Assembly (NCBI RefSeq): GCF_988243305.1
Contig: NZ_OZ547136.1
Strand: one strand, 5' to 3'
Length of the DNA: 64,000 bases
Part shown: positions 4,188-40,755 of the stretch, piece by piece
Numbering within the stretch: the first letter of the stretch is position 1
Layout of the letters: each line of letters opens with the position of its first letter
Notes under the pieces: model-generated
Told to the model about the DNA's origin: nothing
Seen by the model: only the letters and a program-made list of their open reading frames with translations
The model's database searches: none
Made by a program: the position numbers and the translations under genes

Positions 4188-4218
4188 TGATGAGAGCATC
4201 CGGCAATCGGCGCACCAT

Positions 4219-4305
4219 GCCTGATGCGACGCTTGACGCGTCTTATCAGGCCTACAATGGGTACCGGAGCGGTAAGCCGGATAAGGCGTTCACGCCGAAT
4301 CCGGC
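4219..4305. repeat. REP/BIME palindromic units (two inverted REP copies)
   Basis: gcctgatgcgacgcttgacgcgtcttatcaggcctac and gccggataaggcgttcacgccgaatccggc match the enterobacterial REP consensus; sits between convergent ybcF and purK. Confidence 0.7.
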
Positions 4306-7407: not shown

Positions 7408-8793
7408 ATGCTAAAAATCTTCAATACTCTGACACGCCAAAAAGAGGAATTTAAGCCTATTCACGCCGGGGAAGTCGGCATGTACGTGTGTGGAATCACC
7501 GTTTACGATCTCTGTCATATCGGACACGGGCGTACCTTTGTTGCCTTTGACGTGGTTGCGCGTTACCTGCGTTTCCTCGGCTATAAGCTGAAGTATGTGC
7601 GTAACATTACCGATATCGATGACAAAATCATCAAACGCGCCAATGAAAATGGCGAAAGCTTTGTGGCGCTGGTGGATCGCATGATCGCCGAAATGCACAA
7701 AGATTTTGATGCTTTGAACATTCTGCGCCCGGATATGGAGCCGCGCGCGACGCACCATATCGCAGAAATTATTGAACTCACTGAACAACTGATCGCCAAA
7801 GGTCACGCTTATGTGGCGGACAACGGCGACGTGATGTTTGACGTACCGACCGATCCGACATATGGCGTGCTGTCGCGTCAGGATCTCGACCAGCTGCAGG
7901 CAGGCGCGCGCGTTGACGTGGTCGACGACAAACGCAACCCGATGGACTTCGTTCTGTGGAAGATGTCGAAAGAGGGCGAACCGAGCTGGCCGTCTCCGTG
8001 GGGCGCGGGCCGTCCAGGCTGGCACATTGAATGTTCGGCAATGAACTGCAAGCAGCTGGGTAACCACTTTGATATCCACGGCGGCGGTTCTGACCTGATG
8101 TTCCCGCACCACGAGAATGAAATCGCGCAGTCCACCTGTGCCCATGATGGTCAGTATGTAAACTACTGGATGCACTCCGGGATGGTGATGGTTGACCGCG
8201 AGAAGATGTCCAAATCGCTGGGTAACTTCTTTACCGTGCGCGATGTGCTGAAATACTACGACGCGGAAACCGTGCGTTACTTCCTGATGTCAGGCCACTA
8301 TCGCAGCCAGCTGAACTACAGCGAAGAGAACCTGAAGCAGGCACGCGCGGCGCTGGAGCGTCTCTACACTGCGCTGCGCGGCACAGATAAAACCGTTGCG
8401 CCTGCGGGTGGCGAAGCGTTTGAAGCGCGCTTTATTGAAGCGATGGATGACGATTTCAACACCCCGGAAGCCTATTCCGTGCTGTTTGATATGGCCCGTG
8501 AAGTGAACCGTCTGAAAGCAGAAGATATGGCAGCGGCGAACGCGATGGCGTCTCATCTGCGTAAACTTTCCGCCGTATTGGGCCTGCTGGAGCAAGAACC
8601 GGAAGCGTTCCTGCAAAGCGGCGCGCAGGCAGACGACAGCGAAGTGGCTGAGATTGAAGCGTTAATTCAACAGCGTCTGGATGCCCGTAAAGCGAAAGAC
8701 TGGGCGGCGGCAGATGCGGCGCGTGACCGTCTTAACGAGATGGGGATCGTGCTGGAAGATGGCCCGCAAGGGACCACCTGGCGTCGTAAGTAA
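7408..8793 (+). CDS. cysS: cysteinyl-tRNA synthetase, 461 aa
   Basis: Class I aaRS HIGH motif (CHIGHGRT) and KMSKS motif ([10 protein letters not shown]). Confidence 0.95.
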
Positions 8794-8804
8794 TTGCGCA
8801 ATTG

Positions 8805-8828
8805 CCGGATGCGAGTTTTCGCATCCGG
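8805..8828. terminator. hairpin between convergent cysS and ybcI (candidate bidirectional terminator)
   Basis: ccggatgcg-agtttt-cgcatccgg, 9-bp stem, directly after the cysS stop and abutting the ybcI stop; weak U-tract. Confidence 0.45.
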
Positions 8829-9350
8829 TTATCGTCTGCGCCACCACAACATTCCCATCAGTAGCATCCCCGGCAACCACACCCACATCAATTCGGAAAT
8901 AATCACCTGATGCCCGTACGCTGTGGTGTAACGAGACAATGCAAACGGCGCGACTTTAATCACCTGCCAGGGAGCGAAAAAGCGTTCATCTGACCACGGC
9001 CATAGCCAGCCAACGCCTTTACCACCAGTGGTTACCGAATCCAGCAAGCTGTGCGATAGCAATGAGACGGTTAAAAACAGCCAGCAGCGAATCAGCCCAG
9101 CCCTGAACCATCGACGCCCAATCAGCACACATAACAGCGGGACAACAAACGCAAACACCAGCGAATGGGTAAACCCGCGATGACCAAAAACATTGCCGTA
9201 AGCAACGCCAAATTTAAACGACAACACGTCGGCATCGGGCAGCATCGCCAGGATGATTCCGGCAAATAACAGACGCGGAGGGATGACTTTCGAACCCAAC
9301 CCTAAACCAATGCAAAGGGGAACGGCGGCGTGCGTAATAACGGTTGGCAT
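8829..9350 (-). CDS. ybcI: inner-membrane metal-dependent hydrolase-like protein (DUF457), 173 aa
   Basis: Hydrophobic 173-aa ORF; gene-order context. Confidence 0.8.
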   Translation of the reverse strand: MPTVITHAAVPLCIGLGLGSKVIPPRLLFAGIILAMLPDADVLSFKFGVAYGNVFGHRGFTHSLVFAFVVPLLCVLIGRRWFRAGLIRCWLFLTVSLLSHSLLDSVTTGGKGVGWLWPWSDERFFAPWQVIKVAPFALSRYTTAYGHQVIISELMWVWLPGMLLMGMLWWRRR

Positions 9351-9457
9351 GATGGTCGCTTCGGCAAAATGTCGATGCTATCAGCATGGATGAACGGGGC
9401 GTAGAGGGCAAAAGTCTGAAAAGAGAACCGGCCTGTTGATACAGGCCGGGAAAGGGA

Positions 9458-9670
9458 TCAGGCAACAACCTGTACGCTGTGACCTGCAAAACTCACTGTC
9501 TGACCGGCGACGATTTTGCAGCGTTTGCGCGTTTCAACCGCGCCGTCGACTTTCACCTGGCCTTCGGCAATCGCGATTTTCGCCTGCGCGCCGCTTTCGC
9601 TCCAGCCTTCCAGTTTCAGCAAGTCGCACAGCTCAACGTGCGGATGTTTACCTAAAGAAAATGTCGCCAT
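9458..9670 (-). CDS. ybcJ: S4-like RNA-binding protein, 70 aa
   Basis: Start re-picked at MATFSLGKHP (ORF track is 18 codons longer and would overlap folD); start codon abuts the folD stop. Confidence 0.75.
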   Translation of the reverse strand: MATFSLGKHPHVELCDLLKLEGWSESGAQAKIAIAEGQVKVDGAVETRKRCKIVAGQTVSFAGHSVQVVA

Positions 9671-24836: not shown

Positions 24837-26279
24837 TTAAGCGGGTAATGTGATAACAAACCTTGTCCCCCGAGCATCTGACGTTACTGCAACCGTGCCT
24901 TTATGCGCGACAACAATCGATTTCACTATCGCCAGACCAATGCCGCTACCTTCGCCTTTTCGCTGGCGGGAGGGGTCAACGCGGTAGAAACGGTCAAACA
25001 ATCGCGGTAAGTGTTCGGGCGCAATGGGCGTACCGGGGTTTTCGACGGAAACTTGCACCTGGTGATCGACCGTCTGGCAGCGCACAACAATTGTCTCTCC
25101 GGTTGGCGTATAACGCAGGGCATTAGAAAGTAGGTTGCTTAACGCCCGACGCAGCATCAGCGGATCACCCGCAACCTGACACTCGTCGCCAACAAACCGC
25201 AGCTCCACGCCGCGATCTTCTGCTAACGCCTCGAAAAAATCGAACACTTTGCCGACTTCATCCGCCAGGTTGAGCATTTTCTTTTCGGGGATTAGCTGGT
25301 TGTTATCGGCCTGAGCGAGAAACAGCATATCGCTGACCATTTTCGCCATTCGCGTCAGCTCTTCGAGATTAGAGTAGAGCACATCTTCCAGCTCCTTCTG
25401 GCTGCGCGACTGGCTGAGGGCGATTTCCGTTTGCGTTATGAGATTCGTAATTGGTGTGCGAATTTCGTGGGCGATATCCGCTGAGAAATTGGACTGGCGG
25501 GTAAAGACATCCTCAATACGCTCGATCATATGGTTGAACGACAGCACCAGTTGTTCGAGTTCAATGGGCACGGTCTGTGGATCGAGGCGAACGTCGAGAT
25601 CTTTCGAGGTGATATTCTGGATTTGACGGCTGACGCTGCGGATCGGCGCGTGACCTTTATGTACCGCCAACAGCACGATAAAGACGATCAGGATGCTGAT
25701 TACCGATGCGGTCATAATAAGTTTATTCATCAAATCATTTATGTAATGAAGATGAAAATCGATCGACAGCGCGATGTAGAGCGTATAAATCGGTTTGCCG
25801 TCAACCAGCGGGCCAACCGGCAAGTTAATCATCCGCCAGTTGCTGTGTTCCATATGCCCGTGACCGTGCCCTGGCATCATCATCGTCGGGCCGGAAAGGA
25901 GATACACCTCGCCGCCCCGAGCGTCTTTATCGGGTATGGCATCACGTGCAAACTCGCGGATATCGGGCGCGTCGGGGGAGTGATACACCGTTTTACCCTG
26001 GCTATCTGCCAGGGAAATCAACACGTTGGAATAACCACTGACGATATCTTCCAGCGTCATTAAGCGTCGGGCTTGTGTCTCTTCGGGATGATTAAGAACG
26101 CGCTTGAGTGTGGCGCTAATCTCTTTTAAATCATTAATATCCTGCTCGGCAAAATGCACTTTTACTGAGTGGATCATGATCCATGCAAAGGCGAAAAACG
26201 CCGCGATGGTGGCCAGGCTGATAAAAAAGGTCAGGCGGGTTGCCAGCGAAAACGGGCGCTGAAATGGCTTATTGACCAT
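24837..26279 (-). CDS. cusS: copper/silver-sensing histidine kinase, 480 aa
   Basis: H-box [12 protein letters not shown] plus ATPase domain; start re-picked at MVNKPFQRP; overlaps the cusR stop. Confidence 0.9.
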
Positions 26280-40657: not shown

Positions 40658-40755
40658 GCCTGATGCGCTACGCTTATCAGGCCTACGTGGTCCTGCAATA
40701 TATTGAATTGGCAAGATTTTTGTAGGCCGGATAAGGCGTTCACGCCGCATCCGGC
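40658..40755. repeat. REP/BIME palindromic units between entD and fepA
   Basis: gcctgatgcgctacgcttatcaggcctac and gtaggccggataaggcgttcacgccgcatccggc match the REP consensus. Confidence 0.7.

What the first reader, a model, noticed from the sequence alone, without database searches (positions are those of the whole stretch)
8792..8831. Self-complementary AATTGCGCAATT plus hairpin at the convergent cysS/ybcI junction
The cysS stop codon is embedded in a 12-bp perfect palindrome (aattgcgcaatt, 8792-8803), immediately followed by a 9-bp-stem hairpin that abuts the ybcI stop. The two convergent genes are separated by only 35 bp, so the structures must serve both transcripts.
Basis: seen in the sequence. 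Interest (0 to 1): 0.15.

Follow-up and report, generated by a model that had tools for sequence, protein, structure and literature searches.

The report
Known REP53 hairpin capping cysS mRNA
The hairpin between the cysS and ybcI genes is an already catalogued E. coli repeat element (REP53) that marks the stable end of the cysS message while the Rho protein stops transcription just beyond it, and the neighbouring 12-base palindrome is a chance feature of a rare strain variant.

Summary
cysS ends at 8793, ybcI (minus strand) ends at 8829, and the gap is 35 bp. AATTGCGCAATT lies at 8792-8803. A perfect 10-bp stem with a 4-nt loop lies at 8805-8828.

The palindrome is noise. The window holds 7 perfect 12-bp palindromes against about 16-21 expected. 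The exact sequence occurs in only 10 of 5,424 complete E. coli genomes, and K-12 has AATTGCGCTATT.

The hairpin is real, its stem is identical in all 10 E. coli sequences read, and it is already known. It is REP53 of E. coli K-12 (556008-556033), a degenerate REP unit. Citrobacter carries a full REP pair at the same site.

Published K-12 data explain its role:
- The cysS mRNA 3' end lies 5-8 nt past the stem.
- An in vitro Rho-binding site covers the C-rich 80 nt just downstream (C/G 3.4).
- Inhibiting Rho gives about 12-fold more read-through.

So cysS transcription is stopped by Rho downstream, and the hairpin sets the stable 3' end. It is not a classical two-way intrinsic terminator, because neither side has a U-tract. 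No ybcI 3' end has been mapped here, so service to "both transcripts" is unproven. Interest is low.

The parts
7408..8793 (+). cysS coding sequence (cysteine--tRNA ligase); TAA stop at 8791-8793
   Evidence: ORF list. Annotated as cysS in 5,424 E. coli genomes and in K-12.
8792..8803 (.). AATTGCGCAATT, a perfect 12-bp palindrome. It lies in the fast-varying 10-nt spacer between the cysS stop and the hairpin. No function is assigned.
   Evidence: Exact in only 10 of 5,424 genomes. At least 5 alleles of this spacer exist in E. coli. 7 such palindromes are observed against about 16-21 expected.
8805..8830 (.). REP53, a degenerate REP unit. The stem is CCGGATGCGA / TCGCATCCGG (8805-8814 / 8819-8828) and the loop is GTTT. 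K-12 coordinates are 556008-556033.
   Evidence: Inverted repeat. Hairpin energy -19.7 / -18.8 kcal/mol. Listed as 'REP53, Convergent, ybcI/cysS, 556033-556008' in Harris et al. 2026, supplementary Table 15. The first 11 nt, TGCCGGATGCG, are identical to the canonical Y-type REP at window 40755(-).
8833..8836 (+). Steady-state 3' end of cysS mRNA (...CGCAUCCGGUUAUC-3'), transferred from K-12
   Evidence: Term-seq 3' end at 556036 (+), classed 'primary' for cysS, in Adams et al. 2021 supplementary file 1. TRS primary terminus at 556032-556045, peak 556038/9. The coordinate offset of 547203 was checked on the sequence.
8829..8908 (+). C-rich, G-poor tract read as the Rho loading (rut) site for cysS read-through RNA. 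It is the antisense of the Trp/Gly-rich C-terminal codons of ybcI.
   Evidence: 31 C and 9 G in 80 nt give C/G 3.44, above the 99th percentile (2.19) of 80-nt windows in this window. It lies inside the in vitro Rho-binding peak P_N10_489 (NusG plus) at K-12 556001-556112, which is window 8798-8909.
8882..9517 (+). Zone of Rho-dependent termination of cysS read-through, antisense to ybcI. It is the BCM-sensitive transcript region; the Rho-score peak maps to window 9223.
   Evidence: BST at 556085-556720 in Harris Table 15. Rho termination region with peak at 556426 (+), counts 171/16 untreated and 85/93 with BCM, Rho score 11.7, p = 6.7e-21, in Adams supplementary file 2.
8829..9350 (-). ybcI coding sequence (inner-membrane metal-dependent hydrolase family). 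Its stop codon directly abuts the hairpin.
   Evidence: ORF list; annotation.
9428..9449 (-). Canonical intrinsic terminator after ybcJ, 73 nt upstream of ybcI. It limits transcription entering ybcI.
   Evidence: Terminator scan: 9-bp stem with tail TTCTCTTTTC. Term-seq 3' end at 556626 (-), score 72,412. TRS terminus at 556620-556631.

Best explanation
The hairpin is REP53, a short degenerate REP unit sitting exactly between the two stop codons.

For cysS, the proposed sequence of events is:
1. RNA polymerase transcribes through the hairpin into the antisense of ybcI.
2. Once the ribosome leaves at the cysS UAA, the untranslated C-rich, G-poor 80 nt just past the hairpin serves as a NusG-assisted Rho loading site.
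3. Rho terminates transcription over the next few hundred nucleotides.
4. 3'-to-5' exonucleases trim the RNA back to the stable stem (about -20 kcal/mol).
5. This leaves the sharp steady-state 3' end 5-8 nt past the stem.

Shown in K-12, which has the identical hairpin: the 3' end, the Rho dependence of read-through, and the in vitro Rho-binding peak. Shown in this window: the hairpin and the C/G skew. Inferred: exonuclease trimming at this particular site, and transfer of the K-12 data to this strain.

On the minus strand the same stem would cap any ybcI transcript, but this has not been observed. The 12-bp palindrome has no role.
For: - Hairpin geometry and energy.
- REP53 annotation, with an overlapping rut peak and BCM-sensitive transcript.
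- cysS 3' end at 556036 by Term-seq and at 556038/9 by TRS in several datasets.
- Rho termination region at 556426 (+) with Rho score 11.7. The BCM counts of 85 upstream and 93 downstream imply near-complete read-through when Rho is inhibited.
- C/G of 3.44 in the 80 nt after the stem, above the 99th percentile for the window.
- No U-tract, and the terminator scan does not call the site.
- General model: Rho-dependent transcripts end just 3' of stable stem-loops that lack U-tracts, these structures protect against PNPase and RNase II, and 24% of them are REPs (Dar & Sorek 2018, PMC6061677).
- The stem is identical in the 10 E. coli sequences read, while the adjacent spacer has at least 5 alleles. 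At least 99.9% of 5,424 genomes differ from the K-12 50-mer by no more than 2 nt.
Against: - All of the transcript data come from K-12, not from this strain.
- The + tail UUAUCGUCU has 5 U in 9 nt, and the 3' end lies at a distance also compatible with weak intrinsic termination. A mixed mechanism is therefore possible.
- The Rho score uses 800-nt windows, and BCM induces pervasive antisense transcription, so 'complete read-through' is only approximate.
- The rut peak is weak (Log10FE 0.35) and is listed only in the NusG-plus part of the table.
- Exonuclease trimming was not tested at this site.
- Nothing is known about the ybcI side.
Confidence: 0.72

Rival explanations
1. A bidirectional intrinsic (Rho-independent) terminator. 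This is the first reader's implied reading: the single hairpin terminates both cysS and ybcI transcription by itself.
For: - A stable GC-rich hairpin sits between convergent genes.
- A cysS 3' end lies 5-8 nt past the stem.
- The + tail has 5 U in 9 nt.
- More distant Enterobacterales carry canonical A-tract/hairpin/T-tract terminators at this position.
Against: - The minus-strand tail CAAUUGCGC has essentially no U-tract (T-score 0.38, against 2.97 for the ybcJ terminator).
- There is no upstream A-tract.
- The consensus scan does not call the site.
- Read-through is strongly Rho-dependent.
- The site is absent from the TERMITe intrinsic-terminator supplements that were searchable.
- No ybcI 3' end is mapped.
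Confidence: 0.1
2. A collision-type bidirectional terminator of the kind described by Ju et al. 2019 and Wang et al. 2022. The hairpin only pauses converging polymerases, and head-on plus trailing collisions release them.
For: The site lies between convergent genes, encodes a hairpin, and has no U-tract. This matches the class description. In that study, 78 REPs lie within the 306 such terminators.
Against: - That class is described as Rho-independent, whereas this site is BCM-sensitive.
- ybcI is weakly expressed (baseMean 98) and lies behind a strong terminator, so converging polymerases should be rare.
- Only one strand shows a 3' end.
- The Ju et al. list could not be consulted.
Confidence: 0.06
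3. A translational throttle, which does not exclude the best explanation. A REP hairpin fewer than 16 nt from a stop codon stalls the terminating ribosome and lowers protein yield. Here that would apply to both CysS and YbcI.
For: The stem starts 10-11 nt after the cysS stop and 0 nt after the ybcI stop. [quoted passage not shown] 2015, as summarised in PMC12306157).
Against: There are no data for this locus. The primary paper could not be read. cysS is an essential housekeeping gene (general knowledge, not from a call), so a strong brake seems unlikely.
Confidence: 0.25
4. The 12-bp palindrome is a functional dimeric protein-binding site or a second RNA structure.
For: It is a perfect dyad located at a gene end.
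Against: - It occurs in 10 of 5,424 genomes, one substitution away from the majority allele.
- Its frequency is at chance level.
- It lies in the most variable stretch of the junction.
- As RNA, the palindrome on its own could form only a 4-bp A-U stem around a GCGC loop (my reading of the sequence).
Confidence: 0.01

Closest known systems
REP / palindromic unit (PU) elements of E. coli; specifically REP53 of K-12 MG1655
   Same: - It is the same locus and the same hairpin sequence as the annotated REP53.
- It shares the REP head TGCCGGATGCG and the lower stem CCGGAT/ATCCGG with Y-type units.
- It is extragenic and lies between convergent genes, as about 60% of REPs do.
- Citrobacter has a full Y-REP plus inverted Z-REP pair at the homologous site.
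   Different: - It is only 26 nt long.
- Its stem is perfect, without the conserved mismatch bulge.
- It has no GTAG/CTAC tetranucleotide on either side. Both the bulge and GTAG are required by the E. coli REP transposase (PMC8266576). It is therefore a degenerate, probably immobile relic.
Protective 3' stem-loops of Rho-dependent transcripts (Peters et al. 2012; Dar & Sorek 2018)
   Same: - The stable stem-loop has no U-tract.
- The steady-state 3' end lies a few nt downstream.
- A C>G tract follows immediately after.
- Read-through is BCM-sensitive.
   Different: Exonuclease trimming was not shown for this transcript. The tail is not entirely U-poor, so weak intrinsic termination may also contribute.
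Bidirectional terminators between convergent genes (Ju et al. 2019; Wang et al. 2022)
   Same: A hairpin-encoding element without a canonical U-tract lies in a very short convergent gap.
   Different: This site is Rho-dependent, and a 3' end is seen on only one strand. Its membership in the published list could not be checked.
Canonical bidirectional intrinsic terminators (A-tract / GC hairpin / T-tract)
   Same: The position after cysS is the same. Many Enterobacterales have such a terminator here, for example L013, L021 and L029.
   Different: E. coli has neither the A-tract nor the T-tract.

Membership tests
REP / PU element (E. coli type) | Palindromic unit of 20-50 nt able to form a hairpin | tested here: met
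   10-bp perfect inverted repeat with a 4-nt loop; 26 nt as annotated.
REP / PU element (E. coli type) | Conserved repeated sequence motif (REP head GCCKGATGCG and lower stem) | tested here: met
   GCCGGATGCG is exact at 8804-8813, and its inverted copy has 1 mismatch. The first 11 nt are identical to the Y-type unit at 40755(-).
REP / PU element (E. coli type) | Flanking conserved tetranucleotide GTAG (CTAC on the other strand) | tested here: not met
   The 3' flanks are TTATC on the + strand and CAATT on the minus strand. There is no CTAC or GTAG. The requirement is described in PMC8266576.
REP / PU element (E. coli type) | Conserved mismatch bulge in the stem | tested here: not met
   The stem is 100% complementary.
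REP / PU element (E. coli type) | Extragenic location, typically 3' of genes | tested here: met
   It lies in the 35-bp gap between convergent stop codons.
REP / PU element (E. coli type) | Listed among the 355 curated REP elements of MG1655 | tested here: met
   REP53, 556008-556033, in Harris et al. 2026 supplementary Table 15. The local RefSeq copy carries no REP features anywhere, so their absence is uninformative.
Intrinsic (Rho-independent) terminator | GC-rich stem-loop | tested here: met
   -19.7 / -18.8 kcal/mol.
Intrinsic (Rho-independent) terminator | U-rich tract of 7-8 nt directly after the stem | tested here: not met
   The + tail is UUAUCGUC (4 U in 8) and the minus tail is CAAUUGCG (2 U in 8). 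The scan does not call the site.
Intrinsic (Rho-independent) terminator | Termination independent of Rho | tested here: not met
   Published K-12 data give Rho score 11.7, with BCM downstream/upstream counts of 93/85. A BCM-sensitive transcript overlaps.
Rho-dependent terminator with protective stem-loop | Precise steady-state 3' end just downstream of a stable stem-loop lacking a U-tract | tested here: met
   3' end at 556036 (Term-seq) and 556038/9 (TRS), which is 5-8 nt past the stem.
Rho-dependent terminator with protective stem-loop | C>G (rut-like) sequence downstream, and Rho binding | tested here: met
   C/G of 3.44 over 80 nt, above the 99th percentile. In vitro Rho-binding peak at 556001-556112.
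Rho-dependent terminator with protective stem-loop | 3' end generated by exonuclease trimming (longer species in pnp/rnb mutants) | not testable with these tools
   The Dar & Sorek per-gene tables are not held.
Collision-type bidirectional terminator (Ju et al. 2019) | Overlapping 3' ends of both convergent transcripts at one hairpin element | tested here: inconclusive
   Only the plus-strand 3' end is reported. ybcI expression is low. The SEnd-seq table is not held.
Collision-type bidirectional terminator (Ju et al. 2019) | Independence from Rho | tested here: not met
Translation-regulating REP (Liang et al. 2015) | Hairpin fewer than 16 nt downstream of the stop codon | tested here: met
   10-11 nt from the cysS stop and 0 nt from the ybcI stop. 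The criterion is taken from PMC12306157.
Translation-regulating REP (Liang et al. 2015) | Ribosome stalling, mRNA cleavage or tmRNA tagging at the stop codon | not tested
   No data were found for cysS or ybcI.

The most novel reading that the evidence does not exclude
REP53 may be a degenerate, immobile REP relic kept under purifying selection because one 26-nt hairpin does three jobs in a 35-bp gap. It would cap the cysS mRNA after Rho termination, cap ybcI transcripts from the other side, and slow ribosome release at both stop codons, since it lies within 16 nt of each.

The pattern that hints at selection is that the stem is unchanged in all 10 E. coli sequences read, while the adjacent 10-nt spacer carries at least five alleles.
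Probability: 0.15. Interest if true: 0.25.

Novelty: already known. Interest (0 to 1): 0.08.

Why it matters
It matters little beyond correct annotation. The case illustrates three general points:
- A short perfect palindrome next to a hairpin can be a single-strain coincidence.
- A hairpin between convergent genes in E. coli is often a REP-derived 3'-end cap for a Rho-terminated transcript rather than a true intrinsic terminator.
- The rut site here is supplied by the antisense of a Trp/Gly-rich protein tail.

If the dual translational effect were real, it would be a compact example of one element tuning two convergent genes. That mechanism is already described for other REPs.

Tried and rejected
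- Rfam scan of 8300-9400 at E <= 10: only two chance-level hits elsewhere and nothing at the junction.
- The RefSeq K-12 annotation shows no repeat feature here. I rejected this as evidence after finding that the same copy annotates nothing at the obvious REP pair between ybcF and purK.
- The consensus terminator scan does not call the hairpin.
- Covariation support for the stem: none is possible, because the stem is invariant within E. coli and the intergenic region is replaced by unrelated repeats in other genera.
- An idea that the hairpin is the two outer REP heads left after an internal deletion of a REP pair: compatible with the Citrobacter comparison. It cannot be distinguished from decay of a single Y unit with loss of the second REP, so it is left open.
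- Literature that could not be reached: Ju et al. 2019, Liang et al. 2015, and the Dar & Sorek supplements.
- Supplements searched without a hit: TERMITe and Wang et al. 2022.
- The Harris et al. supplement is truncated, so its table of REPs within bidirectional terminators could not be checked.

Full report
**1. What is in the sequence**

cysS occupies 7408-8793 on the + strand, with its TAA stop at 8791-8793. ybcI occupies 8829-9350 on the minus strand, and its stop is the complement of 8829-8831. The two stops are 35 bp apart.

AATTGCGCAATT at 8792-8803 is a perfect palindrome, but it overlaps the stop codon by only two bases. One base further on, CCGGATGCGA (8805-8814) and TCGCATCCGG (8819-8828) form a perfect 10-bp inverted repeat around a GTTT loop. 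On the + RNA a G-U pair (8804/8829) adds an eleventh pair. The hairpin alone folds at -19.7 kcal/mol on the + strand and -18.8 on the minus strand. The 81-nt context gives z-scores of -3.2 and -3.5 against shuffles.

**2. Chance and conservation**

The palindrome is not above chance.
- The window holds 7 perfect 12-bp palindromes, against about 16-21 expected.
- K-12 MG1655 has AATTGCGCTATT.
- The window's 50-mer across the junction is exact in only 10 of 5,424 complete E. coli genomes. The K-12 form is exact in 4,174.
- Sampled minority genomes carry AATTGCGCTGTT, AATTGTTCTTTT or AATTACTCTATT.

So the palindrome is a rare single-substitution allele in the most variable stretch of the junction.

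The hairpin behaves differently.
- Its stem is identical in the 10 E. coli sequences I read.
- At least 99.9% of genomes differ from the K-12 50-mer by no more than 2 nt.
- The search for perfect stems of at least 9 bp gives 6 hits in the window, from 4 distinct hairpins because nested registers are counted, against 1.9 hits expected.

**3. What the hairpin is**

Its first 11 nt, TGCCGGATGCG, are the head of the E. coli REP consensus and match the canonical Y-type unit at window 40755(-) exactly.

At the homologous position, Citrobacter werkmanii and C. youngae share the same left flank (ctctattgccggatg) but carry a full Y-REP, a linker and an inverted Z-REP, in a gap of 89-91 nt. Other Enterobacteriaceae have unrelated GC-rich repeats there. 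More distant Enterobacterales have plain A-tract/hairpin/T-tract terminators.

The element is already catalogued. Harris et al. 2026 (bioRxiv 10.64898/2026.03.23.713779, supplementary Table 15) list "REP53, Convergent, ybcI/cysS, 556033-556008". With the verified offset of 547203, that is window 8805-8830.

It is a degenerate member of the family. It has no GTAG/CTAC tetranucleotide and no stem bulge, and the E. coli REP transposase needs both (PMC8266576). The lack of a repeat feature in the local RefSeq copy means nothing, because that copy annotates no REPs at all.

**4. What it does: published data for the identical K-12 hairpin**

3' end of cysS mRNA:
- Adams et al. 2021 (PMC7815308) report a Term-seq 3' end at 556036 (+), classed as primary for cysS. 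This is window 8833, giving ...CCGGUUAUC-3', 5 nt past the stem.
- The TRS study (PMC10687069) independently reports a primary cysS terminus at 556032-556045, with its peak at 556038/9, in several datasets.

Rho dependence:
- Adams et al. list a Rho termination region on the + strand with its peak at 556426, antisense to ybcI. Counts are 171/16 untreated and 85/93 with bicyclomycin, giving Rho score 11.7 and p = 6.7e-21.
- With Rho inhibited, transcription therefore continues past the hairpin at roughly the upstream level.
- Harris Table 15, taken from the Delaleau et al. 2022 Rho-binding screen, places a NusG-plus rut peak at 556001-556112 on the + strand. It overlaps REP53 and a bicyclomycin-sensitive transcript at 556085-556720.

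Sequence support in this window:
- The 80 nt after the stem have 31 C and 9 G (C/G 3.44), above the 99th percentile of the window.
- This C-richness is the antisense of the Trp/Gly-rich C-terminal codons of ybcI.

Evidence against an intrinsic terminator:
- Neither tail is a U-tract. The + tail is UUAUCGUCU and the minus tail is CAAUUGCGC, and the scan does not call the site.

**5. Mechanism**

This matches the class described by Dar & Sorek 2018 (PMC6061677). In that class, Rho-terminated transcripts end, at steady state, just 3' of a stable stem-loop without a U-tract, and the stem-loop blocks PNPase and RNase II. About a quarter of these structures are REPs.

I therefore read REP53 as the 3'-end cap of cysS mRNA, with Rho terminating on the C-rich tract downstream (confidence 0.72). 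Exonuclease trimming at this site is inferred, and a minor intrinsic component on the + strand cannot be excluded.

For ybcI there is no evidence either way.
- No minus-strand 3' end is listed between 553868 and 556620.
- ybcI is weakly expressed (baseMean 98).
- It lies behind the strong ybcJ terminator at window 9428-9449. That terminator has a Term-seq score of 72,412, against 789 for the cysS end.

**6. Rival explanations**

- A two-way intrinsic terminator (0.10) fails on the U-tract and on Rho independence.
- A collision-type bidirectional terminator (0.06) fits the geometry. It does not fit the Rho dependence or the weak ybcI transcription, and the defining list could not be consulted.
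- A translational effect (0.25, not exclusive) is suggested because the stem lies 10-11 nt from the cysS stop and 0 nt from the ybcI stop. That is within the limit of fewer than 16 nt reported for REP-mediated downregulation (PMC12306157 citing Liang et al. 2015). It is untested here.
- A functional palindrome (0.01) is excluded by the population data.

**7. Verdict**

The object is an already annotated element with published 3'-end and Rho data, so novelty is "already known" and interest is 0.08.

Noticed in passing
window 9428-9449 (-), 3' end about 9423: A strong canonical intrinsic terminator follows ybcJ, only 73 nt upstream of the ybcI ORF. Its K-12 Term-seq score is 72,412. It probably explains why ybcI is weakly transcribed and why no ybcI 3' end is mapped.
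   Followed up: partly
window 8829-8908 (+) / ybcI C-terminal codons: The rut-like C-rich tract for cysS read-through is the antisense of the Trp/Gly-rich YbcI tail (...LMWVWLPGMLLMGMLWWRRR). A coding constraint on one strand therefore supplies a Rho loading site on the other.
   Followed up: partly
window 4195-4305 and 40658-40755: Two canonical REP pairs (BIMEs). The first has a Z1 unit at about 4219(+), a Y unit ending at 4305(-), and an isolated REP head at 4195-4204, and lies between ybcF and purK. The second has a Z2 unit at 40658(+) and a Y unit at 40755(-). I used them only as reference REPs.
   Followed up: partly
L003 (Escherichia albertii), L009 (Pluralibacter gergoviae), L067 (Citrobacter sp. 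FP75): The cysS-ybcI adjacency is not fixed. E. albertii has a different downstream sequence with a canonical terminator and no ybcI within 3 kb. L009 and L067 have about 1.3 kb of extra sequence, with ORF-like content, inserted between cysS and ybcI.
   Followed up: no
window about 7498 and 8096 (+), K-12 554701 and 555299: Published cysS-internal RNA 3' ends: 554701 in TRS and 555299 in Term-seq. Their significance is unknown.
   Followed up: no
window 8794-8836 (cysS 3' UTR); TRS supplementary file 6: In K-12, average read starts per nt are about 5-6 times higher in the 44-nt cysS 3' UTR (2.6-3.3) than in the CDS (0.51-0.56). The authors do not flag it as an outlier. It is compatible with accumulation of a hairpin-protected decay fragment.
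   Followed up: no
window 15131-15144 and 26170-26183: The two longest perfect palindromes in the window are TAATCTGCAGATTA and TGGATCATGATCCA, both 14 bp. Overall, 12-bp palindromes are under-represented (7 against about 16-21 expected).
   Followed up: no
E. coli genome hits H30 (NZ_CP178656.1), H84 (NZ_CP028749.1): In strain VTB96929v the 401-bp query splits into two places, with coverage ending near window 8923, which suggests a disruption inside ybcI. In strain A26, ybcI is not annotated under the match. Two of the 5,426 genomes lack the locus, and two copies lie on records typed as plasmids.
   Followed up: no
window 8784-8833: The window's junction allele is exact in E. coli strain G3/10 (NZ_CP060075.1) and only nine other complete genomes. 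The best 401-bp match in the collection is 99.5%, so the source strain is probably not in the collection.
   Followed up: no
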